The notes beneath the pieces were generated by a model. It saw nothing but the letters and a program-made list of their open reading frames with translations, was not told the DNA's origin and did no database searches. A DNA stretch of 32,000 nucleotides, from NCBI RefSeq assembly GCF_000015805.1, contig NC_009073.1, positions 1,380,001 to 1,412,000 of the forward strand. The letters are read 5' to 3'. This DNA is from Pyrobaculum calidifontis JCM 11548. Its GTDB lineage: Archaea > Thermoproteota > Thermoprotei > Thermoproteales > Thermoproteaceae. Numbering within the stretch: the first letter of the stretch is position 1; each line of letters begins with the position of its first letter. Positions 8,911 to 21,441 of the stretch are shown here, piece after piece. Position numbers and translations under genes: made by a program.

Positions 8911-10068
8911 TTACTGTGCCCTCCTCCTCAGCGCCAAGAAGGCGCCTCCAAGCAACGTGGCAGTGGCCAAGAGGGCGACTAGCGACAAGTTAGGCGCCAC
9001 GCCGCCGCCAGCCGCCTGAGCCGCCGGCATCACAATCTTGTGCGGGTCAGTGAGAGAGTTAAGCACATCGGCGGGTATGCCTATCTTCCACACGCCGCCC
9101 ACCTCCATCACCTTAGCCGTGCCAAGCTGACCCTGGTAGACGAAGTGGCAGTTGAAACACGCAGCAACGCCTGGGTTAACGGCCACTGGCAAGTAGTAGG
9201 GAGCTCTTGAATATGGCGCATATGGAGCTACCAATATGAAGTCGCCAGTGTGTATGTCAAATACGCCCATGACAATAGTCTCGCCATTAGGCGCCTCCTC
9301 AGTCAACGGATGCGTCCTGACACTGGGGTTCTTCAGCACGGCGCCAGATGCAGTACCCCACTCATAGCGGAATATACCAGCTTGCTCTAAAGCACTGAAG
9401 AAGTCTGTCTCAAGGAAGTCGGCAGCAGAGCTCTTTGCTTTTACTGTGCCGTTGGCATACTTATCGTAGCCTACAAGTAGCGCCTTTACCGTAACCTCGC
9501 CCTTGCTCTCTAGAAGTTGCATCAACGACGTCGGCGCATTACCACTGAATGTGTATGTGCCTTCTGGCGTACCTTTGAAACATATGTACACGTTCCGGAA
9601 GTCTAGAGTGGGCTTGGCGCCGAAATAGCCCGGCGTAGCGGTAGATAATCTGGGCACATAGAAGTATATACATGCAGTGTAGCCGTCTGTTGGATTGCCG
9701 TAGCCCACGTGTGCTACTGCGTGACACGCACATCCATACGAGTTCAGAAGACCGGAGTGCACATTACCGGGGCCGCTATTAATAGAGTTCCAAATAGCTA
9801 CGTGGCAGTTTATACACTTTTTCCATACGTCTGTACCCTTGAGTACTTGGTGGCTCCAGACACACTCCTGCTGGCTTGGGTCACAAGCGCCAGCGGCCGG
9901 CCCGCTAGTTAGTCCGGAGAGGGCTTGGCTGTTGGCCGTTCCTGTCGAGTTTGAGTGGCAGGAGATGCAGTTTGTTGGGTGGTTGTATGAATAGGGCGGG
10001 CCGTACGTTGCTGCTACGAATACTGCTAGTAGTAGTAGCGTTGTAATTAGCGCGGGGAATTTCTTCAT
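8911..10068 (-). CDS. Secreted multihaem c-type cytochrome with a C-terminal membrane anchor (3 CxxCH plus 1 CxCH)
   Basis: Signal peptide MKKFPALITTLLLLAVFVAA. CxxCH motifs: CISCH, CINCH, CFNCH. CxCH motif: CACHAVAHVGY. C-terminal anchor LVALLATATLLGGAFLALRRRAQ. It is a single-module paralog of 3570..4976, sharing the CxCHxVxHV and CFNCHF blocks. Confidence 0.8.
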   Translation of the reverse strand: MKKFPALITTLLLLAVFVAATYGPPYSYNHPTNCISCHSNSTGTANSQALSGLTSGPAAGACDPSQQECVWSHQVLKGTDVWKKCINCHVAIWNSINSGPGNVHSGLLNSYGCACHAVAHVGYGNPTDGYTACIYFYVPRLSTATPGYFGAKPTLDFRNVYICFKGTPEGTYTFSGNAPTSLMQLLESKGEVTVKALLVGYDKYANGTVKAKSSAADFLETDFFSALEQAGIFRYEWGTASGAVLKNPSVRTHPLTEEAPNGETIVMGVFDIHTGDFILVAPYAPYSRAPYYLPVAVNPGVAACFNCHFVYQGQLGTAKVMEVGGVWKIGIPADVLNSLTDPHKIVMPAAQAAGGGVAPNLSLVALLATATLLGGAFLALRRRAQ

Positions 10069-10101
10069 GTGAGATGAGAAATTTTTGGGTATTTAAACTT
10101 T

Positions 10102-10167
10102 TGTATTTGTCAAGTACTTTTTTTATGTTTTTTGTACACTCTGTATTTTGTGTGTACATTTTGTATT
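10102..10167 (-). promoter_or_regulatory. Hexamer cluster upstream of the trihaem cytochrome gene
   Basis: TGTATT (10102-10107)-n5-AGTACT (10113-10118), with the latter starting 45 nt from the ATG at 10068. Two further copies of TGTACA-n3-TGTATT lie at 10133-10147 and 10153-10167, a 20-bp period. A TATA-like TTTAAATA (plus tatttaaa, 10090-10097) is present. The distal copies lie in the last codons of ORF 10110..11918. Confidence 0.5.
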
Positions 10168-11918
10168 CGGCGTAGGGCTGGGAATAGGAGTGGGGCTAGG
10201 GCGACTAGCGCGGGGGCGTAGGGCGGCTCTTCTTGGCGTTGTGGAGGCTTGGGTAGCGCCGTGACTTGGGCGTGGGGCTGGGCGGGGGCTTGGCTCCAGT
10301 TGGCCCACCTCTCTGCTATTTGACAAGCGTGTACTCTCGCCAAGTAGAGTAACTTGGTCTCGTTTAGGGGAGCCGCGGCGGCTATGGCCAAGTTTTCTCG
10401 TAATGAGACTTGGCCGTCTGGTCTTACGACGTGGCTCAGCGCGTCTAGGTAGTGTAGGTATTTTACGTCTGTGGTGTTGGGGAAGGCTGGGTGTAGGGCG
10501 AAGTAGGTGAGGGCGTAGGCCAACGCCTCTATGTAGTAGCCCAGGGCCGCCTTGTAGTTTCCCTGTCTCATTGCTATTTCGCCTCTGGCGTAGTTGAGGG
10601 CGGCGTTTCCCACGAGTTGTGGAGATATTATGTCTGTGGCTTTTGAGTACATGTCGGCGTATCTCACTGCCTGTTCTACATATCTGCGGAGGCTCGCCGC
10701 AGCCTTCTCTATGTCGTATGGCTCAGCGCTGTGTGTATAGTAGAGGAGGGATTTCCATAGGTAGTAGACTGCTTGTGCATATTTGTACGCGGCCTGCGCG
10801 GCGCTGTCTATAAAGCCCATTTTGTAATAGGCATAGTCGAGTCCAGCGTCTCGCATGTAGACCTGGGCCGTGTGTATATACATGTGGGCGTATGCCATGT
10901 CGCACAGCGGCGCCGTGTTGTTAGCCACAGCGTCTGCGAGCTCAAGCAAGGCGGCTAGGTATGTGGCTATCTCTACCTCGGCCCCCTGTGGGTCTGTCAG
11001 CATCCTCACGTAGAAGTACGGCGTGGCCGCCTCTGCTATTGCGCGGGGGAGGGCCTCTGTGGCGAGGTCAGTGTTGTTCTTTGCCACTTGTACATAGGCC
11101 AGGGCTTGGGCGGCGCCTCGCCTTAGCACATCTGCGTACTGTGGGTAAAGCGCCGCGAGGCGGAGGGTCTTGTTTACAAAGAGGAGGGCCTCTTTTTCAA
11201 CTGCGTCTATTGGCGTGGCGCTGTTTAAGACGGTCTCGGCGGCTTGGCCCAGCCTCTCTAGATTCGCCGTGAGGTTGTAGGCGGCCCCCGCGGCGATGGC
11301 TACGGCTTGGTATATGTTGCCCACTTCTTCTACTGGCACTATCTCGGCCAGGGGGAGGGGCCTCCTCTCTACTCTCTCTACCAAGGCGCCGTAGACGCCG
11401 TAGAGCTTGGGCTTCCACACTATTTTGTAGTCGTAGTGTTGGAGGACTGGGTATACGAAGAGTTTGAAGCCGTACTGCCTGGCGCCCTGGGCCTTTTCCA
11501 CGAGGCCTCCCACGAAGTCTACTACGCCGCCGGGGGCCAGAGTCCCCGTGTAGATGATCGACGCGTTGAGGGGGGTGTGCGTTATTGCGCTGTACGCCGC
11601 CACTGCCACTGTCAGCGATAGGCTTGTCCCCACTAGGGCCCGCGAGGCGTTTAGCGGGTTTATCACCACGGTGTAGTTTAGGGCGAGGGGGTCGACTCCC
11701 GCCGCTATTGCGGCTTCCCAACACGCCGAGATTGTGGAGTAGTAGAAGGTTAAGTCGTAGTAGTCTAGGCCCTTGATTTCAACGGTGCCGTTGCCTGGCC
11801 CCACGTACACCGCCACTTGGACTGGCACTGCCCTTCCGTCGTAGATGGCTAGCCCATACGCCGTCCCCTGGCCGTAGGCCAAGGCGGCTAGTAGGAGGAG
11901 GACTAGCGCCCGTGGCAT
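10110..11918 (-). CDS. Secreted protein with an N-terminal Lon-like (S16) peptidase-type domain, an Ala/Tyr-rich helical (TPR-like) repeat region and a C-terminal anchor
   Basis: Signal peptide MPRALVLLLLAALAYG. LVGTSLSLTVAVAAYSAITHTPL and TGTLAPGGVVDFVGGLVEKAQGARQYGFKLFVYP resemble the Lon proteolytic-domain blocks (G-x-S-A-G...; TG-x-I-x-x-G-x-V-x-P-V-GG-x-x-EK...G-x-K-x-x-x-x-P). Candidate Ser and Lys residues are retained. The helical repeat region includes GNYKAALGYYIEALAYALTY. The C-terminal hydrophobic stretch is ALVALAPLLFPAL followed by a basic tail. Assigned by motif recollection only. Confidence 0.5.
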   Translation of the reverse strand: MPRALVLLLLAALAYGQGTAYGLAIYDGRAVPVQVAVYVGPGNGTVEIKGLDYYDLTFYYSTISACWEAAIAAGVDPLALNYTVVINPLNASRALVGTSLSLTVAVAAYSAITHTPLNASIIYTGTLAPGGVVDFVGGLVEKAQGARQYGFKLFVYPVLQHYDYKIVWKPKLYGVYGALVERVERRPLPLAEIVPVEEVGNIYQAVAIAAGAAYNLTANLERLGQAAETVLNSATPIDAVEKEALLFVNKTLRLAALYPQYADVLRRGAAQALAYVQVAKNNTDLATEALPRAIAEAATPYFYVRMLTDPQGAEVEIATYLAALLELADAVANNTAPLCDMAYAHMYIHTAQVYMRDAGLDYAYYKMGFIDSAAQAAYKYAQAVYYLWKSLLYYTHSAEPYDIEKAAASLRRYVEQAVRYADMYSKATDIISPQLVGNAALNYARGEIAMRQGNYKAALGYYIEALAYALTYFALHPAFPNTTDVKYLHYLDALSHVVRPDGQVSLRENLAIAAAAPLNETKLLYLARVHACQIAERWANWSQAPAQPHAQVTALPKPPQRQEEPPYAPALVALAPLLFPALRRIQNVHTKYRVYKKHKKST

Positions 11919-12607
11919 CTGGCGCAGTCTAGGAAGTCGGCTGGGCTAAAGCCCATGGCTCTGGGCCCGTGGCACCCTATGCATGGGACTCCCTTGCCTG
12001 CGCCTATTTGGCAGTCTGGCCCTATTGGGACATACCACCTGGACCACGGACTGTGGCACTCTAGGCATACCTCGTATTTGCCCATGTCTACTTGGGCCCA
12101 GGCGGAGTCGTGGAAGACCATGTGGGTGTTTAACACTTTGTTGTAGTCGTGGCAGGTCTGACATCTGGCGCTTGTGGTGGCGGAGTCGTGGGGGTTGTGG
12201 CAGAGGGTGCAGCTCTTTAGCCTGTCTGCCAGCTGGGCGTGCGCCTCGTGGATGTTTAACTGGGAGAAGGACTGGGCTGTGTGGCAGGTGAGACACTGGT
12301 CGAACATGGGCTGGGCGTATCGCGCCGCTATTTGTTGGGGAGTTGGGTTTTCCACTGCTTGTACGTAGATCCAGCGGAGTAGGTCTATGGAGTGGCAGGT
12401 GGCGCAGGAGGTTCCCCCATGCGGCGTATTTTTAATGTTGGCGATGAAGGGGAGCATGTTGTGGCAGGTGGCGCACACGGCCGATGACCCGGGGTCGTAC
12501 CTCAAGTACAGCCAAAAGCCGACTCCGGCGACCACCGCCGCGGCTAACAACAGCAGTGCCACAGTCCTGGGAGTAAGCGCCTTTCTCAGCCGCTGTAGCC
12601 TACCCAT
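11903..12607 (-). CDS. Membrane-anchored octahaem c-type cytochrome, NapC/NirT/NrfH-like
   Basis: N-terminal TM (TVALLLLAAAVVAGVGFWLYL) and eight CxxCH motifs: CATCH, CATCH, CLTCH, CTLCH, CQTCH, CLECH, CIGCH, CARCH. It overlaps both neighbouring genes (8 nt and 16 nt). Confidence 0.8.
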   Translation of the reverse strand: MGRLQRLRKALTPRTVALLLLAAAVVAGVGFWLYLRYDPGSSAVCATCHNMLPFIANIKNTPHGGTSCATCHSIDLLRWIYVQAVENPTPQQIAARYAQPMFDQCLTCHTAQSFSQLNIHEAHAQLADRLKSCTLCHNPHDSATTSARCQTCHDYNKVLNTHMVFHDSAWAQVDMGKYEVCLECHSPWSRWYVPIGPDCQIGAGKGVPCIGCHGPRAMGFSPADFLDCARCHGR

Positions 12608-14222
12608 GGCCCGCCAGCCTCCTTATTAAAATTGCAAGTATGGCAATGAACGGAAAAATCGCCGCCGTCAACACGTCTCGCGTCTCTTTGGGGGCTAGCT
12701 GGGGGTTTTGTGGTAGAGTTAGTACATACGCGTACCCCGACTCTACTTTGAAGGCGGCGAGGTTGTCGCCATAGAGGTAGAAGACGAGGTAGACGTAGTC
12801 GCCGGGGGGCATTGGCAAGAGGTATCTAAGTCTCACTGTGCCGTTTATGTACCCGGCGTAGCGGCCAGAGTTTGTGGAATTGAAAAGCGTCGTGGGCGGC
12901 AACGGGATGAGAACCCCGCTTTTGTTCATTAGTAGGATTGGCCATAGCGCCGTCTGTCTTAGGGGGTCTCTAGGCCTCGCTGTCACGTTCATTTCGACGT
13001 AGGCCGCCACGGCGTTGGGGAGGCGGGGTATTTCCAGTCTCATGAGGGGCTGCGGCTGTGTTAGCTGTATGGAGTAGTAGTGGGGCACCACTAGGGGTGT
13101 CTTTTTCTCCAGTGTAATGGGCTGGGCGGGTACTTGGGGCAGTTGTACCACGCCTTTTTTAACTACGCCGGGGCCTGTGTATACGACTGTGACATTTCCG
13201 CCTGCCGTGGCCTCCAGCGGCAAGAGGCGTATTGTCAACAGACTGGGCTTGGCCACCTCTGCAAAGAGCGTGGCTGAGAGCGCGTGTTCTAGGGCGAGCC
13301 CCTCTGGCGACACTGTGTCGTTTAATAACACGTCGTATTGTACTCCCAGCGCCGTCTGTCTAATGCCCACTACTACTCCGGCCAGCGTCCTGTATTCCAC
13401 CGTGGGCGGCTGTATTGATATAGGCCCGGTGTAGTTCATGGGGTATATGGCGTAGCGGTTTTGAGGCCCGGCTATCTCCACTTTGAAGTATGTGACGTTG
13501 CCCCACGCCTTTGACGGCTCTAGGAGTATCTCTCCGCCGCCGCTTAAGTCCTTCTCCACGGTGACGTTGCCCACGTTCAGCGTTACTTTTACCTGTATGT
13601 ACTTGGCTAAGTAGTAGTAATAGGGCTGGTACGCTATTCTCAGGGCCTTAGACCTATTGAAGCAGTACCATGAGACTATTTTTAGAAGGCCTATGTCTCC
13701 CCCGTATTTCCCGGCTAGGTCTATTTGAAGCCAGTTGCAGAGGTCTACCACCCGCGTTTTGACGTTGAAGGCTAGGGCGCGCCACTCGGGGGTAAAGACT
13801 AGGCTTTGCCCAGCCCTCTTGGCCGCCTCTGCTATGTCTAGGTAGTACACGTCTTTTACCACGCCGCCGCGGGTCACCACTATGAAAGTGGCATTTAAGA
13901 ACTCCACCGCTGTTTCCTCGCCTGCGCACGCGTCCATGAGGGTTTGGCTGAGGGACAACGTGGCAGTGTTCTGCGGGTTTTGGAAAACGTAGTGCATCGT
14001 CTTCTCCCCCTTCGCTCCGCAGTTGAAGCGTAGGTGTAAGACGGCTATTGTGTAGACGTCTTCGCCTAGGTGTTGAGATAGGGCGGTGTTGTTTACCTTG
14101 ACTGCAACTACTACGTCTGTTACTATGGTGAGCGTGGTCTTGTTTACTACTTCTACCTCGATGCCTGGCGCCACTGTTATGGCTATGGCGAAAGGGGCAA
14201 TAAGTAGAACGAGGTATTTCAT
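12600..14222 (-). CDS. Secreted, heavily N-glycosylation-sequon-rich protein of unknown function with a C-terminal anchor
   Basis: The start is reassigned to the ATG at 14222 (MKYLVLLIAPFAIAITVAPG, a signal peptide). The ORF-track extension to 14351 runs through the TATA and hexamer promoter region. At least 13 N-x-S/T sequons are present. C-terminal TM AAIFPFIAILAILIRRL. No recognisable catalytic or cofactor motif. Confidence 0.6.
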   Translation of the reverse strand: MKYLVLLIAPFAIAITVAPGIEVEVVNKTTLTIVTDVVVAVKVNNTALSQHLGEDVYTIAVLHLRFNCGAKGEKTMHYVFQNPQNTATLSLSQTLMDACAGEETAVEFLNATFIVVTRGGVVKDVYYLDIAEAAKRAGQSLVFTPEWRALAFNVKTRVVDLCNWLQIDLAGKYGGDIGLLKIVSWYCFNRSKALRIAYQPYYYYLAKYIQVKVTLNVGNVTVEKDLSGGGEILLEPSKAWGNVTYFKVEIAGPQNRYAIYPMNYTGPISIQPPTVEYRTLAGVVVGIRQTALGVQYDVLLNDTVSPEGLALEHALSATLFAEVAKPSLLTIRLLPLEATAGGNVTVVYTGPGVVKKGVVQLPQVPAQPITLEKKTPLVVPHYYSIQLTQPQPLMRLEIPRLPNAVAAYVEMNVTARPRDPLRQTALWPILLMNKSGVLIPLPPTTLFNSTNSGRYAGYINGTVRLRYLLPMPPGDYVYLVFYLYGDNLAAFKVESGYAYVLTLPQNPQLAPKETRDVLTAAIFPFIAILAILIRRLAGHG

Positions 14223-14254
14223 GTGTCTGAATTTTGTAAAATTATTTAAGCACA

Positions 14255-14282
14255 TGTATTCAAGTTGTACACTTGTTATAAT
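14255..14282 (-). promoter_or_regulatory. Phased hexamer array TGTATT-n5-TGTACA-n5-TATAAT
   Basis: TGTATT 14255-14260, TGTACA 14266-14271, TATAAT 14277-14282, in exact 11-bp register. The central hexamer starts 44 nt from the ATG at 14222. A TATA-like TTAAATAA (plus ttatttaa, 14243-14250) is present. The array overlaps the stop codon of the upstream nrfD-like gene. Confidence 0.6.
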
Positions 14283-15253
14283 GGTTCTGGAATTCCAGCG
14301 TATACCACTAGCGTTCTTAGGGCTAGTGCGCCGAAGAGGCCGGCGACGCATCCTGCGTAAGTTAACTTGGGGCTGTGCCTAATTTTTGACAGCGCGGCTG
14401 TGGCGAGGGGGGTTACGATTCCGAGGCCGATTACGAAGACCCAGAAGATCGGCGCTAGCTCGCCCCACAGCACTGCGTGTGCGCTTTCTCTTGCCGCGAA
14501 TGAGGCGGAGTTTAGGGCGTTGTAGAGGAAGAGGAATATCACGGCGACTTCGCCTATTTCAAATAAGACGCCGTATTTCTCAGTGGTGTGTACTAGGTGT
14601 TCTCTGTCTAAGTGGTACATTCTTATGAGGGCTAAGGCCCCCGCCGTGGCGCTGAATATCCATATGGTGGGTATGCCGGGGATTCCCCAGAGCGTCGTGT
14701 TCCAAAACGGCACTGCCTTTGCTTCAGATATTAAAAAGCCGCTGTACAACGTCACCAATACTCCGATGGCCATTGCTAGGTAGTAGTACCACCTCTGTGC
14801 CAGTAGCCACGTGGCGATTTTGTCTAAGAGGGCTAGTAGTGGCGCGAGGGGCTTTGCCAAAGGCTGTGGGAGCGCGGCTTGGATTCGTCTTACTAGGTAG
14901 GGGAGTGCCCATATGGCCACTACGAGAAGCGCCAGTATTAACATGACTATGCCGAGTGCCATCCAGGAAAATCGCAACTCCCCCCTTAGGAATGGGAAGA
15001 GGAAGTTGTATCTAAGCTCTAGGAAGGAGTTCAACATGGCGAACATCATGACTGTGGGTGGTCTTGAGAGATCTCCCATTACGAAGAGGAGGGCAAGTAT
15101 GATCGAGGCCAGTAGCACGTAGGTCAGCGTCTCGTACCGTAGCTCCTCTCCCCTTAGCTTGAAAATTGACATGGCCACCATCCCCATGCCGACTAGCCCG
15201 GCGAAGAATAGGAAGGGGCCTATTAAGAAGGCGTCCCAATACTCCTGAAACAT
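14276..15253 (-). CDS. NrfD/PsrC-family polytopic quinone-interacting membrane subunit
   Basis: 325 aa with about 8-9 TM helices. It is a paralog of 17544..18416 (both begin ...EIW/EYW..LIGPFL... and end ...LRxLVxxAGxxEP). It is the last gene of an operon with two FeS proteins and a cytochrome. Confidence 0.7.
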   Translation of the reverse strand: MFQEYWDAFLIGPFLFFAGLVGMGMVAMSIFKLRGEELRYETLTYVLLASIILALLFVMGDLSRPPTVMMFAMLNSFLELRYNFLFPFLRGELRFSWMALGIVMLILALLVVAIWALPYLVRRIQAALPQPLAKPLAPLLALLDKIATWLLAQRWYYYLAMAIGVLVTLYSGFLISEAKAVPFWNTTLWGIPGIPTIWIFSATAGALALIRMYHLDREHLVHTTEKYGVLFEIGEVAVIFLFLYNALNSASFAARESAHAVLWGELAPIFWVFVIGLGIVTPLATAALSKIRHSPKLTYAGCVAGLFGALALRTLVVYAGIPEPL

Positions 15254-15954
15254 TACTCCTCCACGATGAAGAACTTGGGCTTAGTGTTTTTCTCTGGCAT
15301 TAGTACGTAGACCCGCTTGGCGGCGGCCAGCCTCTTTGAGATTGAGGAGTTGGGGTCGTTTATGTCGCCGAAGTCTCTTGCCCCCACTGGGCAGAAGGCG
15401 ACGCAGGCGGGGAGCCCCCCACTCTTTACCCGTTGGATGCACCAAGTGCACTTGGAGGGCGTGCCTTCTTTATTTATCCACCTGGCGTCGTAGGGGCACG
15501 AAGATATGCAGTACTTACAGCCGACGCAGAGGTTGTAGTCCACTAGCACAATGCCCCCGTCTTTATCGACGTAGGAGGCGCCAGTGGGGCAGTTGCGGAC
15601 GCAAGGCGCATCTTCGCAGTGTTGACACTGTATAAATATAAAGCGCGGCAAATCTCCGTGCTCTGTTTCAACTATTTTTGTATTTGCCTGAGGCCACCCC
15701 CACGACGCGTTTGGAGACTTGTCTCTTCCATAGTTTACCGCGTTGCAGGCAGCCACACAGGCTCCACAGAAGATGCACTTGGAAACGCTCCAGAGGAAGG
15801 CGTACTTTTTGCCTTGGCCGTCTTTGACTTGGCCCACTTCTACTGGCTGTAGTTTTAGCCCCTTGGCGTTGCTTTTCGACGGCAACAAGGATAGTGCAGC
15901 TAGAGCCACTGGCAATGTGAGAAATTGGCGCCTATTCATGGCCCCCCTCGCCAC
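15253..15954 (-). CDS. Tat-exported 4x[4Fe-4S] ferredoxin-type subunit (NrfC/PsrB-like)
   Basis: Twin-arginine signal MNRRQFLTLPVALAALSL. Four Cys clusters: CIFCGACVAAC, CQHCEDAPCVRNCP, CVGCKYCISSCP, CTWC...CVAFCP. Confidence 0.8.
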   Translation of the reverse strand: MARGAMNRRQFLTLPVALAALSLLPSKSNAKGLKLQPVEVGQVKDGQGKKYAFLWSVSKCIFCGACVAACNAVNYGRDKSPNASWGWPQANTKIVETEHGDLPRFIFIQCQHCEDAPCVRNCPTGASYVDKDGGIVLVDYNLCVGCKYCISSCPYDARWINKEGTPSKCTWCIQRVKSGGLPACVAFCPVGARDFGDINDPNSSISKRLAAAKRVYVLMPEKNTKPKFFIVEE

Positions 15955-16726
15955 TCTTCTCCTCGATGCGCGACTGGCGCCAGCCCACTAAGGCCATGAT
16001 CGCCACGGCGGCTGCGGCCGCCTCTATGCCTAAGTAGCTGATTGGCGGGAGAGAGCCTCTTTCTAGTGGGAATGAGAGAATTCTCTTAGTCTCCTCGGGG
16101 TCTTTCTTTCTTGCGACGTCGGTTAAAAAGGCGGAGAAGGCCTTCTCGTCGCTATACACGTACACCCAATGTGTGAGCTCTATGCCGTAGGTTTTCCGCC
16201 CCTTTTTCTCCTCTTTTCTTGCCTGGGCGTATATCTCCGATATGGGGCCGAATTTTAACGCGCCTGTTGGACAAGCCTCTACGCAAGCGGGCGGCTTGCC
16301 CTCCGCCGCTCTATCCACGCAGAGGTCGCATTTTCTATACCGTCTATCTGCTCCTTGTCTAGGTACTCCGTATGGGCAAACAGCGGCGCATCTCCCACAG
16401 CCTATGCACTTGTCTGTCTGAATAACCACGGCGCCGTACTCTGTGACAATGTGGGCGTCCACTGGGCATACCAAGGCACACACCGCCGAGTAGCAGTGGA
16501 AACATCTGTAAAGCATTGGGACGCTGGCATATTGCCTAAGTGAGAGCCAGTTAGTCGCAGTGAGAGAGGAAGGGGAAAAAGTTTTTGACCGTAGCTCATA
16601 TGCTGTGCCATTTCTAATTTTACACGCCTCTACACACTTTCCACAGCCAGTGCATTTATCCACGTCGAATAATATGCCATACTCCTTCCGCGGATTAGGC
16701 CACGACACTGGAGTCAGTTTGACCAC
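15932..16726 (-). CDS. 4x[4Fe-4S] ferredoxin-type protein with a C-terminal TM tail anchor (HybA/FdnH-like topology)
   Basis: GTG start. Cys clusters: CTGCGKCVEAC, CFHCYSAVCALVCP, CIGCGRCAAVCP, CDLC...CVEACP. No signal peptide. C-terminal hydrophobic helix IEAAAAAVAIMALVGW followed by a charged tail. Confidence 0.75.
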   Translation of the reverse strand: MVKLTPVSWPNPRKEYGILFDVDKCTGCGKCVEACKIRNGTAYELRSKTFSPSSLTATNWLSLRQYASVPMLYRCFHCYSAVCALVCPVDAHIVTEYGAVVIQTDKCIGCGRCAAVCPYGVPRQGADRRYRKCDLCVDRAAEGKPPACVEACPTGALKFGPISEIYAQARKEEKKGRKTYGIELTHWVYVYSDEKAFSAFLTDVARKKDPEETKRILSFPLERGSLPPISYLGIEAAAAAVAIMALVGWRQSRIEEKSGEGGHE

Positions 16727-16760
16727 GTAAAAGCTTCTTTTATGTTTATTTAAACCATTC

Positions 16761-16795
16761 TATTACAAATGTACACTTGGTATACATTGTGTACA
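16761..16795 (-). promoter_or_regulatory. Phased hexamer array TATTACA-n2-TGTACA-cttgg-TATACA-ttg-TGTACA
   Basis: TGTACA 16770-16775 starts 44 nt from the GTG at 16726. TATACA is at 16781-16786 and TGTACA at 16790-16795. A TATA-like TTTAAATA (plus tatttaaa, 16747-16754) is present. It has the same 26-nt architecture as 21486-21511. Confidence 0.6.
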
Positions 16796-17488
16796 CTACG
16801 AGTAGTGGCACTGTGTACATGGCCTACCTGTTATATCAGGCGGCGTAAGCTGTAGATGACAGGTAAGACAAGTCTTGCCCTCTACCACGCCTTGTAGACA
16901 GGGAGCTGCCGGGGGTACATAGGCGTGTGAATTTGGCGAGTGGCATTTGCCGCACATCTCTACGCTGAATGTGAAGGGGCTATTGTGCATTTGCATATGC
17001 TTTTCCACTGTGGGGAGGTATGGGTGGCAATTGGCGCAGGACTGGGGGAGGAAGTTTTCGATGTGGATGGCGTGGCACACGCTACATGTATTAGTGGTAT
17101 TAACTACTGCAAGGTGGGCGGTGTGTATGTACAACTTCTGTGGATTTGTGTGACATTCTAGACAGGGCTCATATAGGCCTTTGTGTGGATAATACTTATT
17201 GAATACGTCGAGGGAATTTGGGCGAGATGTCAAGTATGTCCAAACCATGTCTGCCATGTCGCCTATCGTAATTTTGTGGCATACGAGACAGCTGTATTTT
17301 GAGTGCGGCTTGCTTATATTGCCTATGTAGAATGACATTGTATGACATATTCCACATTGTACATTTACTGTTGGAGTATATACAAAAAATGCGTATAGGA
17401 CCGGTATCGAAAAAATAAGTATCAATATGACAATTACGATGGCCTTTATTACTGACGCCTTTTTAATAGGCATTCTAAATTTCAACAC
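16796..17488 (-). CDS. Membrane-anchored octahaem c-type cytochrome, NapC/NirT/NrfH-like (paralog of 11903..12607)
   Basis: N-terminal TM (AIVIVILILIFSIPVLYAFFV) and eight CxxCH motifs: CGICH, CLVCH, CLECH, CSVCH, CANCH, CGKCH, CLTCH, CTQCH. The motifs are collinear with the other octahaem protein. Start is GTG at 17488 or ATG at 17473. The gene is visibly AT-richer than its neighbours. Confidence 0.8.
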   Translation of the reverse strand: MLKFRMPIKKASVIKAIVIVILILIFSIPVLYAFFVYTPTVNVQCGICHTMSFYIGNISKPHSKYSCLVCHKITIGDMADMVWTYLTSRPNSLDVFNKYYPHKGLYEPCLECHTNPQKLYIHTAHLAVVNTTNTCSVCHAIHIENFLPQSCANCHPYLPTVEKHMQMHNSPFTFSVEMCGKCHSPNSHAYVPPAAPCLQGVVEGKTCLTCHLQLTPPDITGRPCTQCHYS

Positions 17489-17521
17489 AATGCTTCACAA
17501 TCAGAAAAATATATGCCTTGT

Positions 17522-17548
17522 TATTCAAGATGTACACTTTGTATTACA
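17522..17548 (-). promoter_or_regulatory. Phased hexamer array TATTCA-n3-TGTACA-n5-TATTACA
   Basis: TGTACA 17531-17536 starts 43 nt from the start at 17488. A TATA-like ATATATTT (plus aaatatat, 17508-17515) is present. The array overlaps the stop codon of the upstream nrfD-like gene. Confidence 0.55.
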
Positions 17549-18416
17549 CTGGCGCTTCAAAAACTCCAGCTTGTAGTACTAATACCCTCAGCAGTAGGGC
17601 GCCTATTAGTGCCAGCAAGGCGGCTGTAGCGGCGAGGTATTTGTTCTCCCTCTTGGCGAGGTAGAGGCCTATGAATAATGGCGCCAATATCCCCAGCGCC
17701 ACTACGCCTATCCAAAAAGGCGCGGCCAAATCGCCGTATGCCAAAGCCTCTGCGCTTGTCCTAGCCGCCCTACTGCCCCCGTAGAGGGCGAGGCTGACTA
17801 AGGCGAACACCGCCAGCAACTCCGCCGCGTCTAAGGCGAAGCCGTACCTCGTGGCGGCCTTTGACACAGCCTCTGAGTGCACCAACAGTTTGACCACCGC
17901 CGTTGCGCACACTGAGGCGCTTATTATCCACAGCACGGGTATCAGCGCCGTGTTCCAAAACGGCACCCCCGGCGCCGCGGCGATTAAGAACCCGCTGTAT
18001 ATTGTCACCGCAACTCCCACTAGCAGAAGCAGTGCGTCATACCACTTGGCGTCTACCAGCGGCCTCAACGCCCCGATCCCGGCGTGTCTCAGTGCCACTA
18101 AGAGAGTTAACACCAGCATTACCAACAGCAGGGCTATGCCCACGGCCATCCAGCTTCTCGTCCAGCCGAAGGTTCCGCCGAACACCGCGCTCATGATTGC
18201 CGAGGGCATATTCCACGGCCTAGACAAGTCTGCTACCACAAACACAAGCGCTAGCGCGAGGGAGATAAAGGTCACCCAGCTCAGCTCCCTCCTCTTCTCC
18301 TCTACGCCGCTCCACTTTAGCAATACGTAGGCCACGGCCGTCATTCCGCTAATGCCGGCTAGCCAGAGGAACGGCCCTATGAGCCAGGGGTTCCAAATCT
18401 CTTGAAACGCCGTCAT
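17544..18416 (-). CDS. NrfD/PsrC-family membrane anchor subunit of a molybdopterin oxidoreductase
   Basis: 290 aa, about 8 TM. ATGA-type 4-nt overlap with the FeS subunit gene. Third gene in an A-B-C order. Confidence 0.75.
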   Translation of the reverse strand: MTAFQEIWNPWLIGPFLWLAGISGMTAVAYVLLKWSGVEEKRRELSWVTFISLALALVFVVADLSRPWNMPSAIMSAVFGGTFGWTRSWMAVGIALLLVMLVLTLLVALRHAGIGALRPLVDAKWYDALLLLVGVAVTIYSGFLIAAAPGVPFWNTALIPVLWIISASVCATAVVKLLVHSEAVSKAATRYGFALDAAELLAVFALVSLALYGGSRAARTSAEALAYGDLAAPFWIGVVALGILAPLFIGLYLAKRENKYLAATAALLALIGALLLRVLVLQAGVFEAPV

Positions 18417-18976
18417 GGCCCCACCACCACGAAGTACTTTGGCGAAGTGCCCTTTTCCTCAAGCAACCTAACGTAGCGGCTTCTCGCGAGCCTTCTAGAA
18501 ATCTCAGACGTTGGGTCGTCTATGTCTCCAAACGCCCTGGCGCCCGCTGGGCACACCTCTACGCAGACCGGCCGGAGGCCGGCCTTTACTCTGCTTAAAC
18601 ACTCCTCGCCCATGCACTTCATGGGCAAGCCGGTCTCTTCGTCTAGCCACCTGGCCTCGTAGGGGCAGGCCACCATGCAGTACTTACAGCCGATGCAGAG
18701 GGCCGGGTTTATCTTGACGAGTCCGTCTACGTCTCTGTAAGAGGCGCCGGTGGGGCACACTGTGACGCAGGGCGCATTTTCGCAGTGCTGGCACTGGACT
18801 AGCAACAACATGGGCCTGGGCCCCTTCTCCACAGCGATTCTCTTTATATTGCTTCTAAGCCACCCCCACGTCTTGTTTTCGCCTGTGGAAGAGCGGTAGT
18901 TTGCGGCGTTGCACGCGGCTATACACGCGCCGCAGGCAATGCACCTGGACTGGTCCCAGAGGTGTGCCAGCCTCAT
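18413..18976 (-). CDS. 4x[4Fe-4S] electron-transfer subunit (PsrB/DmsB-like)
   Basis: Cys clusters CIACGACIAAC, CQHCENAPCVTVCP, CIGCKYCMVACP and a C-terminal ...CVEVCP. No own signal peptide, consistent with co-export alongside the Tat-signal catalytic subunit. Confidence 0.8.
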   Translation of the reverse strand: MRLAHLWDQSRCIACGACIAACNAANYRSSTGENKTWGWLRSNIKRIAVEKGPRPMLLLVQCQHCENAPCVTVCPTGASYRDVDGLVKINPALCIGCKYCMVACPYEARWLDEETGLPMKCMGEECLSRVKAGLRPVCVEVCPAGARAFGDIDDPTSEISRRLARSRYVRLLEEKGTSPKYFVVVGP

Positions 18977-21441
18977 AGTCTCCTCACCCGAACGCTTGCG
19001 TTTGTAGCAGCGCTACCGCTCACCGGCTCTAGCTTGCCGCTGGCAAACCACTCCGGATTGACGCCCTCGCGGAGGAACTCGTACTCGCCAGTGAGTAGCC
19101 TACTCGTCCTACCCCCAGCCATTGCGTATGTGAACAACACCCCTGGTCTAACGCGGTTTGTCACCTTTACCACGGCCTTCGCCTTAAACCCGTTGTCTAA
19201 GCCCTCTAGCTCCACCACGTCTCCGTCTTTGACGCCTAGCCGCTCGGCGTCGACGGGGTTCATCCACACAGTCCTATCCACGATCCACTTGGCGTTCTTC
19301 ACCATGACCATGTGCGCGCTTATGATTTGATCCTTCCCGTTTACTAGGTAGAACTCGTCGGGGGCGCTTGGGACCTTGTACAGAGGCGGCCTCCAGTCGG
19401 GCAGTGGGTCTCTGTTGTACTGCAGAGCCCTCAGCGCGTAGATTTCCACTTTCCCGCTCGGAGTGCCCAGGGGCGTCTTATACGGCCTGGCCTCGTAAGA
19501 CTTCTTCTTAAAGACGTAGAACCCCTTGGCCTTGAGCTCCTCCTCCAGCCTCGCAGGGTCTAGGTTCCACGCATTTGCCAGACTTATGATTACGGCCTTC
19601 TTAATGGCCTCTTCGTATTCCTCAAAGGCGTGTGGGTCTGCGTACTTCTCCGTGTAGCCCACGGCGGCGGCCTTCTCTGGGAAGGCCCTCCTGATGATCT
19701 CCATCAAGGCCCAGAAGGCGTTTCTCGCATCTACGCCGGGGGGCGGGTCGAGCACTTTCTCCGAGTAGACTACGCCCGCGTGTAGACTCCACTTCATAGT
19801 CCCCATCTCGCCGCGCTCGAGGAACATGAGGTCTGGCAGTACGTAGTCGCACCAATCCACGTGGTCTTGCGGCAGTATGTCTATGGCCACCACTAGCTCC
19901 AACTTGCTTAAGGCTTGCTTGAGCTTCTCCGTATTGACGTCTCTTGTGAAAGGCGCAGTGCCCACTATGAAGAGGGCCTTTATCGGGTAGGGCTTCTCAG
20001 TGATTATTGCGTCGAGCAATGCGTCAAAGACGCTGGTCGCAAGCGGGTATGCCACCTTGTCCACTCTTTGGGCCTTGGGCGCTGGGAGCTCTTGCGCGGT
20101 TATGCCCACGTCGCATACTTGGAATATCGTCACCACTTTCCCCGCCGCGGTGGTAACCGCGTTTGGGTACTTGGCGCTTTCTTGGAAGCAGAGGCCGCCT
20201 CTCTTGTCTATGTTGCCCACTAGGGCGTTTAAGATGAGGATTGCCATGTACAAGTCGAGCTCGTTGCCGTTTTTAGCGGCGTACCACCCGTCCTCTGCCA
20301 CGCCCCTCGCCGTGGCGAACTCCACGGCAATTCTCCGAATATCGGCCGCGGGGACTCCGGTTATCTTCTCGGCCTCCTCTGGCGGATACTTAGCCGCCCT
20401 CTCGGCCAAGAGCTTAAACGCCGTCTTTACTCTGACCTCGCCCTGCGGCGTTTGAACAACGCCCTCGTAGTCCAGGGCCGGGTCTTGGGCCTTGTCATGT
20501 GGCACAAGGGACTTAGTCGCATTGTCGTAGACGAGGTAGGCCGAGCCTTCGCCGCCTAGGTCTTTCTCAGTGAGCGGCTTGCCGTCTGGCTTAATGAGGA
20601 ACGGGGCGTTGGTGTACTTCTTTAAAAACGCGGCGTCGTAGAGGCCCCGGGTTATTATCACGTTTATGAGAGAGAGTACGAAGGCCGTGTCTGTGCCTGG
20701 GATTATGGGCACCCACTCCACCGAGGAGTAGGCCAAGTTGGGGGCCCTTGGGTCAACTACGACAATTTTCACCCCCCTCTCCCTAGCCTTGGCCACCTGC
20801 CTCACGAGGCCCATCGCGGCGTCTAAATTCCTCCCCACCAGGAGGATGTAAGTGGCGTTTTCATAGTCTGGGTCCACTGAGGGCGGGCCTCCTGCGCCTA
20901 GGACAAACCCCCTGGCCACGGTGGGGGCGTTGTGGCAAGTCCCCTCGTGCCCCACCACGTTGGGAGTCCCCAAGACGCTGGCTATGAAGGGCAGTATCCA
21001 AGAGTGTACGTCGTGTCTAGTGAAGGCGACGCTCTCTGGCCCGTACTTGTTCACTATGTCTCTGAGCTTCTGTGCAATTTCGTTCAACGCAGTGTCCCAG
21101 TCCACCTCTTGGAACTTCCCCTCTCCCCTGTTTCCAACGCGCTTTAGAGGCTTCTTCAGCCTGAGGGGGTGGTTCCAGAGCTGAAGCGCAGAGGCTGGGC
21201 GGAAGCACATGCCGGGCTGGGGGTGCTCCAGGTTGGGCAAGAGGTACATTCTGTCGCCTCTTTTGACAAAGATTAAGCCGCACGCTGCTCCACACGCGCC
21301 GCAGATCACAGGCGCTTTCACCTCCTCCGCGGCCGTCTTTTGTGCAGTTTGCTGAGCCGCCGATGTCAGCGTCAGCGGAAGCGCAGAAACAACGCCAACA
21401 GTAGCGGCGAGTTTGACGAAGTCTCTTCTCGAAATTTCCAT
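18973..21441 (-). CDS. Molybdopterin (DMSO reductase family) oxidoreductase catalytic subunit, Psr/Phs/Arr/Ttr-like. Substrate not assignable.
   Basis: The start is reassigned to the ATG at 21441 (MEISRRDFVKLAATVGVVSALPL, a Tat signal). The track extension to 21543 runs through the promoter. N-terminal FeS0 motif CGACGAAC-x24-C. The length (822 aa) and A-B-C operon order are typical of the family. Confidence 0.8.
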   Translation of the reverse strand: MEISRRDFVKLAATVGVVSALPLTLTSAAQQTAQKTAAEEVKAPVICGACGAACGLIFVKRGDRMYLLPNLEHPQPGMCFRPASALQLWNHPLRLKKPLKRVGNRGEGKFQEVDWDTALNEIAQKLRDIVNKYGPESVAFTRHDVHSWILPFIASVLGTPNVVGHEGTCHNAPTVARGFVLGAGGPPSVDPDYENATYILLVGRNLDAAMGLVRQVAKARERGVKIVVVDPRAPNLAYSSVEWVPIIPGTDTAFVLSLINVIITRGLYDAAFLKKYTNAPFLIKPDGKPLTEKDLGGEGSAYLVYDNATKSLVPHDKAQDPALDYEGVVQTPQGEVRVKTAFKLLAERAAKYPPEEAEKITGVPAADIRRIAVEFATARGVAEDGWYAAKNGNELDLYMAILILNALVGNIDKRGGLCFQESAKYPNAVTTAAGKVVTIFQVCDVGITAQELPAPKAQRVDKVAYPLATSVFDALLDAIITEKPYPIKALFIVGTAPFTRDVNTEKLKQALSKLELVVAIDILPQDHVDWCDYVLPDLMFLERGEMGTMKWSLHAGVVYSEKVLDPPPGVDARNAFWALMEIIRRAFPEKAAAVGYTEKYADPHAFEEYEEAIKKAVIISLANAWNLDPARLEEELKAKGFYVFKKKSYEARPYKTPLGTPSGKVEIYALRALQYNRDPLPDWRPPLYKVPSAPDEFYLVNGKDQIISAHMVMVKNAKWIVDRTVWMNPVDAERLGVKDGDVVELEGLDNGFKAKAVVKVTNRVRPGVLFTYAMAGGRTSRLLTGEYEFLREGVNPEWFASGKLEPVSGSAATNASVRVRRL

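What the first reader, a model, noticed from the sequence alone, without database searches (positions are those of the whole stretch)
14276..17488. Operon with NrfD, a Tat FeS protein, a tail-anchored FeS protein and an octahaem cytochrome, but no catalytic subunit
The operon encodes four proteins: a membrane-anchored octahaem NapC/NirT-like cytochrome; a signal-less 4-cluster ferredoxin with a C-terminal TM tail; a Tat-signal 4-cluster ferredoxin; and an NrfD-type integral membrane subunit.

It has no molybdopterin or other catalytic subunit, unlike the two complete PsrABC-type operons downstream. The composition resembles quinol:cytochrome modules such as NrfBCD, the Qrc/ACIII core or Geobacter Cbc-type complexes. 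However, it has two FeS proteins and an 8-haem subunit.

The FeS proteins carry an exported-type signal or a tail anchor and the cytochrome is also predicted to face outward. This suggests a menaquinol-to-outer-face electron wire.
Basis: partly seen in the sequence, partly recalled or inferred. Interest (0 to 1): 0.6.

Follow-up and report, generated by a model that had tools for sequence, protein, structure and literature searches.

The report
Quinol-to-cytochrome module beside archaeal nanowire genes
Four Pyrobaculum genes (an eight-haem membrane cytochrome, two iron-sulfur proteins and a quinone-binding membrane anchor) look like a home-made electron outlet. It probably carries electrons from the membrane quinone pool to the cell's extracellular cytochrome "nanowire"; this is a new variant of a known kind of complex and is so far untested.

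Summary
On the minus strand at 14276-17488 lie four genes:
- an N-terminally anchored octahaem cytochrome (cyt8A)
- a signal-less 16-Cys ferredoxin with a C-terminal TM tail (FeS_tail)
- a Tat-signal 16-Cys ferredoxin (FeS_tat)
- an NrfD-type anchor (NrfD2)

The genome is Pyrobaculum calidifontis. The solved nanowire subunit PcECN (PDB 8E5F) is encoded 4 kb downstream.

The module is built from local paralogues:
- FeS_tat and NrfD2 are fast-evolving duplicates of the neighbouring PsrB1/PsrC1.
- FeS_tail duplicates the formate-dehydrogenase beta subunit (FdnH type), tail included.
- cyt8A belongs to a tiny family with an NrfH/NapC-like front and a c7-like back.

The module is conserved in four Pyrobaculum species, always directly upstream of the nanowire/Ccm island and never with a Mo subunit of its own. 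The adjacent PsrABC1 has an independent distribution.

- Promoter-like TGTACA/TATA elements precede both cyt8A and FeS_tail, so there are probably two transcription units.
- The Psr operon is upstream, not downstream.
- cyt8A may itself oxidise quinol.

Best reading: an outward-facing menaquinol:cytochrome wire, a new variant of the NrfCD-plus-multihaem kind. The same window's island was noted earlier in this scan. No expression or biochemical data could be obtained.

The parts
17489..17543 (-). Promoter-like spacer between the psrC1 stop and the cyt8A start. It holds a TGTACA palindrome (17531-17536) and an ATATATTTTT TATA-like box (17505-17514), about 22 nt before the GTG.
   Evidence: Sequence read. 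The TGTACA box lies 43 nt before the start, the same spacing as at five other unit heads in the window. It is conserved upstream of the cyt8A orthologues.
16796..17488 (-). cyt8A: a membrane-anchored octahaem c-type cytochrome with an NrfH/NapC-like N-terminal part (CxxCHxM on haem 1) and a c7-like C-terminal part.
   Evidence: 8 CxxCH motifs and TM 13-31. Invariant haem motifs and M51. The family profile hits NrfH 2J7A_C at E=2e-7 and GSU1996 3OV0 at E=9e-21. PF03264 is hit by 12 of 19 family members but not by cyt8A itself. GC is 44.9% against 57.2% for the genome.
16727..16795 (-). Second promoter-like spacer. It holds TGTACA boxes at 16790-16795 and 16770-16775 (a third lies at 16814-16819 inside the cyt8A 3' end), a TGTATA variant, and a TTTAAATAA box (16746-16754) about 24 nt before the GTG of FeS_tail.
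   Evidence: The same arrangement is seen in the G003, G006 and MAG orthologous loci.
15932..16726 (-). FeS_tail: a signal-less ferredoxin with four [4Fe-4S] motifs and a C-terminal TM tail. It is a diverged duplicate of the FdnH-type formate dehydrogenase beta subunit.
   Evidence: The best PDB match is E. coli FdnH 1KQF_B, E=1.3e-28, residues 11-240. It is 42% identical to the own-genome FdhB, which sits in an FdhA-FdhB-cyt b-FdhE operon. It is sister to the Thermoproteales FdhB clade with a stem length of 1.31. All 16 Cys and the tail motif are conserved, and two FdhB segments are deleted.
15253..15954 (-). FeS_tat: a Tat-signal ferredoxin with four [4Fe-4S] motifs, of PsrB/NrfC type. The likely true start is the ATG at 15939, which overlaps the end of FeS_tail by 8 nt.
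   Evidence: 54% identical to the neighbouring PsrB1. Best PDB match is Thermus PsrB 2VPW_B, E=5e-44. Groups with PsrB1 at 100/99 support. RR signal and 16 Cys are conserved in four orthologues.
14276..15253 (-). NrfD2: an NrfD/PsrC-type integral membrane quinone-site subunit with three clade-specific insertions.
   Evidence: Pfam NrfD. 35% identical to PsrC1. Nested in the Thermoproteaceae PsrC1-type clade with a stem length of 1.3. PsrC-clade invariant residues are kept. AF2 pLDDT 85 with an extra helix at 130-152. Foldseek matches ActC and PsrC.
17544..21441 (-). Context: the complete PsrABC-type molybdoenzyme operon (PsrA1 with a Tat signal from M35, PsrB1, PsrC1). It is the source of the FeS_tat/NrfD2 paralogues and is not part of the module.
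   Evidence: Its distribution is independent of the module.
8911..14222 (-). Context and likely electron acceptors: the secreted 540-aa protein (12600-14222), the second octahaem cyt8B (11903-12607), a Lon-like 602-aa protein (10110-11918) and the nanowire subunit PcECN (8911-10068).
   Evidence: PcECN matches 8E5F_A at E=7e-268 over 1-385. The gene order is conserved directly after the module in every genome that has it.

Best explanation
The four genes encode an outward-facing electron-transfer module with no catalytic centre. It connects the menaquinone pool to the extracellular cytochrome system (cyt8B, PcECN nanowire) encoded just downstream.

Proposed mechanism:
1. NrfD2 binds menaquinol at a P-side site. 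This is inferred from PsrC homology.
2. Electrons pass through the four clusters of FeS_tat, which docks on NrfD2 as PsrB does on PsrC.
3. FeS_tail takes the place that the Mo subunit holds on PsrB and adds four more clusters. It lacks a signal peptide. It is probably assembled with FeS_tat in the cytoplasm, exported by 'hitch-hiking' on FeS_tat's Tat signal, and held by its FdnH-type tail.
4. In formate dehydrogenase-N the FdnH membrane-proximal cluster feeds a haem. Here FeS_tail is proposed to reduce the haems of the membrane-anchored cyt8A in the same way.
5. The c7-like C-terminal haems of cyt8A hand electrons on to the outer cytochromes.

What is shown:
- domain content
- topology signals
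- paralogous origins
- conservation and synteny
- shared promoter motif

What is inferred:
- subunit contacts
- co-export
- direction of electron flow
- the identity of the acceptor
For: - Domains and topology signals.
- FeS_tat/NrfD2 are PsrB1/PsrC1 duplicates that keep all Cys and the PsrC-clade invariant residues.
- FeS_tail is an FdnH duplicate that keeps all 16 Cys and the tail, but has lost two FdhB segments and has no Mo partner.
- FeS_tail, FeS_tat and NrfD2 overlap by 8 and 1 nt, which implies coupled translation.
- cyt8A's N-terminus is NrfH-like and its C-terminus is c7-like.
- The module is conserved in 4 Pyrobaculum species and several metagenome contigs, and is always contiguous with the orf583-cyt8B-Lon-PcECN-Ccm island.
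- PcECN identity.
- The same TGTACA box sits 43-45 nt before the start codons of the PsrA1, cyt8A, FeS_tail, orf583, CcmF and CcmA units, with 30 boxes in the window against 5.4 expected. It is conserved in orthologues.
- TatC is present.
- NrfD + FeS + multihaem clusters are already read as MK:cytochrome c oxidoreductases in other archaea: PMC7327174. The known NrfD complexes are reviewed in PMC8076601.
Against: - There are no expression, proteomic or biochemical data.
- cyt8A has its own promoter-like element and a very different GC content (44.9%), so it may not be a stoichiometric subunit.
- Related islands in G021 and G274 have cyt8-type cytochromes but no FeS/NrfD genes. The nanowire system therefore does not require the trio.
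- A complex of two beta-type FeS subunits, and Tat hitch-hiking between them, has no precedent that I know of.
- The cyt8A model was poor (pLDDT 64) and its fold search gave nothing.
- No multimer prediction was possible.
Confidence: 0.55

Rival explanations
1. The architecture is the same but electrons flow the other way. The module would be a cytochrome:menaquinone reductase, like Qrc or Nhc of sulfate reducers. It would bring electrons from outside (reduced minerals, partner cells, the nanowire) into the quinone pool, possibly in an electrogenic way.
For: NrfD-type complexes work in both directions: Qrc and Nhc reduce quinone (PMC8076601). Nothing in the sequence fixes the direction. The physiological role of PcECN in this facultative aerobe and nitrate reducer is unknown.
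Against: The module shares its TGTACA promoter box with two Psr-type terminal reductase operons. This suits an electron-outlet regulon. Pyrobaculum species are known Fe(III) reducers rather than Fe(II) oxidisers (PMC8280799).
Confidence: 0.15
2. The four genes form two independent devices. cyt8A (like cyt8B) would be a stand-alone NrfH/CymA-type quinol dehydrogenase. The FeS_tail-FeS_tat-NrfD2 trio would be a separate quinol-oxidising base that serves some other partner encoded elsewhere, such as a soluble or anchored redox protein or enzyme.
For: Separate promoter-like elements flank cyt8A, and its GC content is deviant. cyt8-family cytochromes occur without any FeS/NrfD neighbours in G021 and G274. 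The CxxCHxM motif and the NrfH profile match suggest that cyt8A can oxidise quinol by itself.
Against: cyt8A and the trio co-occur in all four species and are always adjacent in the same order. No candidate catalytic partner is conserved nearby. FdnH-type subunits normally hand electrons to a haem.
Confidence: 0.2
3. FeS_tail is a true cytoplasm-facing tail-anchored protein. The set would then be a transmembrane complex with FeS domains on both faces.
For: FeS_tail has no signal peptide in any orthologue. Tail-anchored proteins default to a cytoplasmic N-domain.
Against: The tail, with its basic WRQSRIEEK stretch after the TM, is homologous to that of bona fide FdnH-type subunits. By established knowledge of FdnGHI these are exported with a Tat partner. 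NrfD has no cofactor and there is no b-haem subunit, so electrons would have no route across the membrane.
Confidence: 0.05
4. The block is a decaying remnant of a Mo-enzyme operon that lost its catalytic gene.
For: FeS_tat and NrfD2 derive from a PsrBC pair, and the clade stems are long.
Against: All 32 cluster cysteines, the RR signal, the tail and the 8 haem motifs are intact in four species at 63-80% identity (51% for cyt8A in G003). FeS_tat has gained a Tat signal and NrfD2 has gained structured insertions. These are signs of new function, not decay.
Confidence: 0.03

Closest known systems
NrfBCD part of E. coli NrfABCD (quinol:nitrite reductase)
   Same: An NrfD anchor, a Tat-exported four-cluster NrfC-type protein and a multihaem cytochrome c as electron acceptor. 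There is no Mo subunit and everything sits on the outer face.
   Different: NrfB is a soluble pentahaem that feeds the enzyme NrfA. Here the cytochrome is membrane-anchored, octahaem and NrfH-like. A second four-cluster protein is inserted. No terminal enzyme is encoded. FeS_tat and NrfD2 score far below the NrfC/NrfD equivalog cut-offs.
NrfD + 4Fe-4S ferredoxin + multihaem clusters read as menaquinone:cytochrome c oxidoreductases in Methanoperedenaceae and metal reducers (PMC7327174); Geobacter Cbc-type complexes
   Same: The same three-part logic and the same proposed role: exit of electrons from the quinone pool to extracellular cytochromes.
   Different: Those clusters were acquired laterally from bacteria and have one FeS protein. 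The Pyrobaculum module was assembled from local Thermoproteales paralogues and has two FeS proteins.
Hmc/Nhc complexes of Desulfovibrio (HmcABC.., NhcABCD)
   Same: A multihaem cytochrome, a four-cluster FeS protein with a C-terminal TM helix (HmcB/NhcB) and an NrfD-like subunit.
   Different: They work towards quinone reduction. They have one outer FeS protein, a soluble cytochrome and a 10-TM NrfD. The HmcB model scores 90.9 bits against a cut-off of 420.
Alternative complex III / Qrc
   Same: A quinol (or quinone) site in an NrfD subunit, an FeS chain and a TM-anchored multihaem cytochrome, with no active Mo centre. The NrfD2 model superposes best on ActC.
   Different: ACIII and Qrc keep a degenerate molybdopterin-like domain (ActB1, QrcB) that carries the Tat signal. 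Here that place is taken by an FdnH-like FeS protein, and the Tat signal sits on the PsrB-like subunit.
Formate dehydrogenase-N FdnGHI (PDB 1KQF) and polysulfide reductase PsrABC (PDB 2VPW)
   Same: These are the parent families of the parts: FeS_tail ~ FdnH (tail included), FeS_tat ~ PsrB, NrfD2 ~ PsrC.
   Different: Both parents have a Mo catalytic subunit that carries the Tat signal, and FdnH sits on a di-haem b subunit. None of these is present in the module.
E. coli NapGH-NapC and Hyd-2 (HybOCAB)
   Same: NapGH is an FeS-based quinol dehydrogenase that feeds a NapC-type membrane cytochrome. Hyd-2 has two tail-anchored FeS proteins in series on an NrfD-like anchor. (Own knowledge and PMC8076601.)
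   Different: NapH is not NrfD-type. In Hyd-2 one of the FeS proteins is the hydrogenase small subunit.

Membership tests
NrfD/PsrC membrane anchor family (PF03916) | Pfam model above the gathering score | tested here: met
   NrfD2 scores 75.8 bits against a cut-off of 25.8, over residues 5-321.
NrfD/PsrC membrane anchor family (PF03916) | Eight-helix double four-helix-bundle fold like PsrC/ActC | tested here: met
   The AF2 model has pLDDT 85. Foldseek matches ActC 8K9E_C (TMq 0.71) and PsrC 2VPW_C (TMt 0.71).
NrfD/PsrC membrane anchor family (PF03916) | P-side quinone-site residues | tested here: inconclusive
   NrfD2 keeps every residue that is invariant across the Thermoproteales PsrC1 clade, including DLSRP, SWM, YSGF, PFWN and the late Arg. 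These were not mapped one-to-one onto Thermus PsrC N18/H21/Y130.
NrfD equivalog of cytochrome c nitrite reductase (TIGR03148) | Score above the curated cut-off | tested here: not met
   58.5 bits against 347.6.
NrfC / PsrB-type four-cluster subunit | Four Cys motifs and a twin-arginine signal of its own (NrfC, DsrO, TtrB type) | tested here: met
   FeS_tat has 16 conserved Cys and a conserved MNRR[QTE]FL signal. It matches 2VPW_B at E=5e-44.
NrfC equivalog (TIGR03149), DsrO, TtrB | Score above the curated cut-off | tested here: not met
   158.8 against 377.6, 158.2 against 200, and 155.1 against 416.
FdnH-type formate dehydrogenase beta subunit | Four clusters, no signal peptide and a C-terminal TM tail | tested here: met
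   FeS_tail matches 1KQF_B at E=1.3e-28 over residues 11-240. The tail motif is shared with FdhB homologues.
FdnH-type formate dehydrogenase beta subunit | Encoded next to a Tat-signal Mo/W alpha subunit and a cytochrome b | tested here: not met
   Neither is present in the module or its orthologues. Genuine relatives have both. TIGR01582 scores 100.5 against a cut-off of 334.7.
NapC/NirT/NrfH quinol dehydrogenase cytochromes (PF03264) | N-terminal TM helix followed by a first haem in a CxxCHxM motif | tested here: met
   TM at 13-31. CGICHTM is present, and M51 is conserved in at least 90% of the 19 family members.
NapC/NirT/NrfH quinol dehydrogenase cytochromes (PF03264) | Significant match to the family model or to a solved member | tested here: inconclusive
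   The family profile hits NrfH 2J7A_C at E=2e-7 over the N-terminal 95 positions. PF03264 is hit by 12 of 19 members (best E 1.5e-5) but not by cyt8A itself. The structure model was too poor to test the fold.
NapC/NirT/NrfH quinol dehydrogenase cytochromes (PF03264) | Four (or five) haems | tested here: not met
   There are eight invariant CxxCH motifs. The C-terminal half resembles the c7-type domains of GSU1996.
Alternative complex III / Qrc | A molybdopterin-like (cofactor-less) subunit or domain fused or adjacent to the FeS subunit | tested here: not met
   No molybdopterin-family domain occurs in any of the four proteins.
NrfD-FeS-multihaem MK:cytochrome c oxidoreductase clusters (loosely defined kind, PMC7327174) | Adjacent genes for an NrfD-like protein, a 4Fe-4S protein and a multihaem cytochrome, without a catalytic subunit | tested here: met
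   Conserved in orthologous loci.
NrfD-FeS-multihaem MK:cytochrome c oxidoreductase clusters (loosely defined kind, PMC7327174) | Quinol:cytochrome activity | not testable with these tools
   This needs biochemistry.

The most novel reading that the evidence does not exclude
The module is an arch that joins two quinone-reactive membrane subunits: the NrfD2 site and the NrfH-like first haem of cyt8A. The link is an eight-cluster FeS bridge made of two beta-type subunits, exported together on a single Tat signal. Such a device could cycle quinone/quinol or couple NrfD ion movement to electron export. That would give energy conservation, or pmf-assisted export, that the plain NrfH-type cyt8B route lacks. 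It would also be the first case of Tat hitch-hiking between two FeS beta subunits.
Probability: 0.12. Interest if true: 0.75.

Novelty: new variant of a known kind. Interest (0 to 1): 0.5.

Why it matters
The structure of the Pyrobaculum calidifontis cytochrome nanowire is solved (8E5F). How electrons reach it from the cytoplasmic membrane of an archaeon with no outer membrane is not established. None of the papers I could search describes this module.

The module is the obvious candidate for that first step. It can be tested directly by co-purification, menaquinol:cytochrome assays and expression profiling.

It also shows how a respiratory module can be built by tinkering. Duplicates of a polysulfide-reductase base, a formate-dehydrogenase beta subunit and a quinol-dehydrogenase cytochrome were recombined, a Tat signal moved onto the FeS subunit, and the catalytic subunit was dispensed with. 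This converges on the NrfCD-cytochrome design seen in bacteria and in methanotrophic archaea.

Tried and rejected
- Baquero et al. 2023 (the PcECN paper) and Mardanov et al. 2012 (P. ferrireducens genome) are not held. I could not see whether they comment on these genes. Full-text searches for Pyrobaculum + NrfD + multihaem and for 'PcECN' found no description of the module.
- AF2 model of cyt8A: poor (pLDDT 64), and Foldseek found nothing. The NrfH-like fold therefore rests on profile matches only.
- phmmer of NrfD2 against PDB found nothing. The fold search was needed instead.
- The search for related loci with the cyt8 alignment failed because there was no conserved stretch. With FeS_tail alone it found only Pyrobaculum orthologues plus unrelated ferredoxins. 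A wide survey for the FdnH-like + PsrB-like + NrfD trio outside Thermoproteota was therefore not achieved.
- Rejected: 'part of the upstream Psr operon'. The module has its own promoter-like elements, there is an opposite-strand gene between them in P. oguniense and the MAG, and PsrA1 has an independent distribution.
- Rejected: 'decaying remnant'. All cofactor motifs are intact in four species.
- The Pyrodictium delaneyi proteomics paper did not bear on this family.

Full report
WHAT IS THERE

The minus strand of the window carries, in transcription order:
- a complete Psr-type molybdoenzyme operon: PsrA1 18973-21441 with a Tat signal from Met35, PsrB1 18413-18976 and PsrC1 17544-18416
- the four genes of the finding
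- a secreted 540-aa protein (12600-14222)
- a second octahaem cytochrome, cyt8B (11903-12607)
- a Lon-like 602-aa protein
- a 385-aa cytochrome
- a membrane protein, CcmF, a 468-aa cytochrome, and CcmC/A/B with a CcdA-like gene

The 385-aa cytochrome is the solved Pyrobaculum calidifontis nanowire subunit (8E5F_A, E=7e-268 over the full length). The genome is one 2,009,313-bp contig.

THE FOUR PROTEINS

- cyt8A is 230 aa, with 8 CxxCH motifs and a single N-terminal TM helix after a basic N-terminus.
- FeS_tail is 264 aa, with 16 Cys in four ferredoxin motifs, a TM helix at 229-247 and no space for a signal peptide. The upstream open frame is at most 8-23 codons in the orthologues.
- FeS_tat has an MNRRQFL twin-arginine signal and 16 Cys. 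Orthologues start at the equivalent ATG, so the real start is probably 15939 rather than 15954.
- NrfD2 is a Pfam NrfD protein. Its AF2 model (pLDDT 85) superposes on ActC of alternative complex III and on PsrC.

None of the four contains a molybdopterin or other catalytic domain, and none reaches the cut-off of any curated equivalog (NrfC, NrfD, DsrO, TtrB, FDH-beta, HmcB, QrcC).

OPERON STRUCTURE

The gaps are:
- PsrC1 to cyt8A: 55 nt
- cyt8A to FeS_tail: 69 nt
- FeS_tail to FeS_tat: -8 nt
- FeS_tat to NrfD2: -1 nt
- NrfD2 to the next gene: 53 nt

Both spacers around cyt8A hold the palindrome TGTACA about 43-44 nt before the next start codon. A TATA-like box follows, 22-24 nt before the start.

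The same box at 43-45 nt heads the PsrA1, orf583, CcmF and CcmA units. There are 30 TGTACA in the window against 5.4 expected from composition.

TGTACA/TGTATA plus a TATA-like box also precede the cyt8A and FeS_tail orthologues in three other genomes.

I therefore read cyt8A as its own unit and FeS_tail-FeS_tat-NrfD2 as a translationally coupled three-gene operon. Both would belong to one regulon with the Psr operons and the cytochrome island. Read-through cannot be excluded, and transcript data could not be obtained.

ORIGINS OF THE PARTS

FeS_tat:
- It is 54% identical to the neighbouring PsrB1 and carries a 48-residue N-terminal addition made of the Tat signal and a linker.
- It groups with PsrB1 at 100/99 support.

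NrfD2:
- It is 35% identical to PsrC1.
- In a tree of its 57 detectable relatives, the NrfD2 clade (100/100, stem 1.3 substitutions per site) sits inside the Thermoproteaceae PsrC1-type clade, with Thermofilaceae PsrC outside.
- It keeps every residue that is invariant in that clade.
- It has three insertions: a disordered P-side loop (65-94), a confidently predicted extra helix (130-152) on the cytoplasmic side between TM3 and TM4, and a 3-residue insert.

FeS_tail:
- Its best solved match is E. coli FdnH (1KQF_B, E=1.3e-28, aligned up to the tail).
- It is 42% identical to the genome's own FdhB, which lies in a classical FdhA-FdhB-cytochrome b-FdhE operon.
- The nearest non-orthologous relatives in metagenomes also sit in such operons.
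- In a tree, the FeS_tail clade (stem 1.31) is sister to Thermoproteales FdhB (100/98).
- All 16 Cys and the tail motif (TM then WRQSRIEEK) are shared with true FdhB proteins. Two FdhB segments (about 20 and 7 residues) are deleted, and I take this as loss of contacts with the Mo subunit (inference).

cyt8A:
- It belongs to a very small family: 23 representatives at E<=1e-3 among 1.8 billion cluster representatives, and 6 of 401 sampled genomes of the phylum.
- The family has invariant haem motifs and a nearly invariant Met in CxxCHxM on haem 1. In Desulfovibrio NrfH this motif supplies the ligand of the quinol-site haem (own knowledge).
- A family profile matches NrfH (2J7A_C, E=2e-7) over the TM-proximal part and the c7-type domains of Geobacter GSU1996 (3OV0, E=9e-21) over the rest.
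- Pfam NapC/NirT is hit by 12 of 19 members, but not by cyt8A itself.
- The AF2 model was too poor to test the fold.

DISTRIBUTION AND SYNTENY

The module occurs in 4 of 18 Pyrobaculum species genomes:
- this one
- P. oguniense TE7
- a 2.47-Mb genome that carries the proteins named P. ferrireducens
- a MAG

It also occurs on several metagenome contigs. The order is always cyt8A-FeS_tail-FeS_tat-NrfD2, and it always lies directly upstream of orf583-cyt8B-Lon-PcECN-orf438-CcmF.

A Psr operon is adjacent here. In P. oguniense and the MAG it is 1.9 kb away with an opposite-strand PaREP1 gene in between. In the ferrireducens-like genome the 14.5 kb upstream holds no oxidoreductase genes. The PsrA1 orthologue lies 800 kb away there, and PsrA1 orthologues also exist in six complete genomes that lack the module. 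The catalytic subunit is therefore not 'merely relocated'.

The reverse does not hold. A Thermoproteus-type genome (G021) and a genome of another family (G274, with three cyt8 paralogues) have cyt8 + Lon-like + ECN-like islands without any FeS/NrfD genes. The trio plus cyt8A is thus a Pyrobaculum-specific addition to an older cytochrome island.

MECHANISM

I commit to an outward-facing menaquinol:cytochrome wire with this path: NrfD2 quinol site, then four clusters of FeS_tat, then four clusters of FeS_tail, then the haems of cyt8A, then the downstream cytochromes and the nanowire.

Reasons for outward topology:
- c-type haem attachment by Ccm occurs outside.
- FeS_tat has a conserved RR signal, and TatC exists in the genome.
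- FeS_tail keeps the FdnH tail with basic residues after the helix. In that family this goes with export alongside a Tat-signal partner and a cytoplasmic C-terminus.
- NrfD proteins carry no cofactor, so a cytoplasmic FeS_tail would be electrically isolated.

The only Tat signal in the operon is on FeS_tat, and its gene overlaps the FeS_tail gene by 8 nt. This suggests co-assembly and hitch-hiking (inferred).

FdnH naturally bridges an FeS chain to a membrane-proximal haem. That makes it a sensible adaptor between a PsrB-type chain and an NrfH-type cytochrome (inferred).

Direction, partners and stoichiometry are not shown. The main rivals are reverse operation, two independent devices, and a cytoplasmic FeS_tail.

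COMPARISON WITH KNOWN SYSTEMS

The design 'NrfD + NrfC-type FeS + multihaem cytochrome, no catalytic subunit' is known from:
- NrfBCD
- Nhc/Hmc
- the ACIII/Qrc cores (PMC8076601)
- clusters read as MK:cytochrome c oxidoreductases in Methanoperedenaceae and metal reducers (PMC7327174)

What differs here:
- a second, FdnH-derived four-cluster protein
- an NrfH-like octahaem anchor, which gives a possible second quinone site
- the Tat signal on the PsrB-type subunit
- assembly from local paralogues rather than lateral acquisition
- physical linkage to a structurally solved nanowire gene

I file it as a new variant of a known kind, with interest 0.5.

Noticed in passing
window, TGTACA at 2188, 7591, 10133/10153, 14266, 16770/16790, 17531, 21486/21506, 29879/29889: A TGTACA palindrome sits at a fixed 43-45 nt (with second copies about 20 nt further up) before the start codons of the unit heads CcmA, CcmF, orf583, FeS_tail, cyt8A and PsrA1. 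Near ECN and PsrA2 it sits at 65-85 nt. There are 30 copies in 32 kb against 5.4 expected. It looks like one regulon covering both Psr operons, the module, the nanowire genes and the Ccm genes.
   Followed up: partly
window 16796-17488: cyt8A has 44.9% GC (GC3 50%) against 57.2% for the genome and 59.7% for its paralogue cyt8B. It is only about 29-31% identical to cyt8B, while two non-orthologous representatives of unknown origin are 36-39% identical to it. This suggests a separate, possibly lateral, origin.
   Followed up: partly
window 12600-14351: The longest ORF of the 583-aa protein overlaps the 3' end of NrfD2. The TGTACA box at 14266 and the signal-peptide-like MKYLVLLIAPFAIA point to the ATG at 14222 as the real start, giving 540 aa.
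   Followed up: partly
G000:C1:376250-379825 (L004): This is a classical membrane formate dehydrogenase operon: FdhA, FdhB (275 aa, tail-anchored), a 4-TM cytochrome b (239 aa) and an FdhE-like protein. It is the source family of FeS_tail.
   Followed up: partly
L039+L040 (G274:C1:232000-268000): A genome of another Thermoproteota family carries three cyt8-family octahaem genes, a Lon-like gene and 3- and 5-haem cytochromes in one 12-kb island, with no NrfD or FeS genes. It may be a simpler version of the same export system.
   Followed up: partly
L011 7542-9003; G006 region between PsrC1 and cyt8A: In P. oguniense and a related MAG, a 188-aa gene of unknown function and an opposite-strand PaREP1 gene are inserted between the Psr operon and the module.
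   Followed up: no
window 14276-15253 (NrfD2 residues 65-94 and 118-152): Two clade-specific insertions distinguish NrfD2 from PsrC1: a low-confidence P-side loop next to the DLSRP motif, and a confidently predicted extra helix on the cytoplasmic side. They could be docking sites for the FeS_tail tail or the cyt8A anchor.
   Followed up: partly
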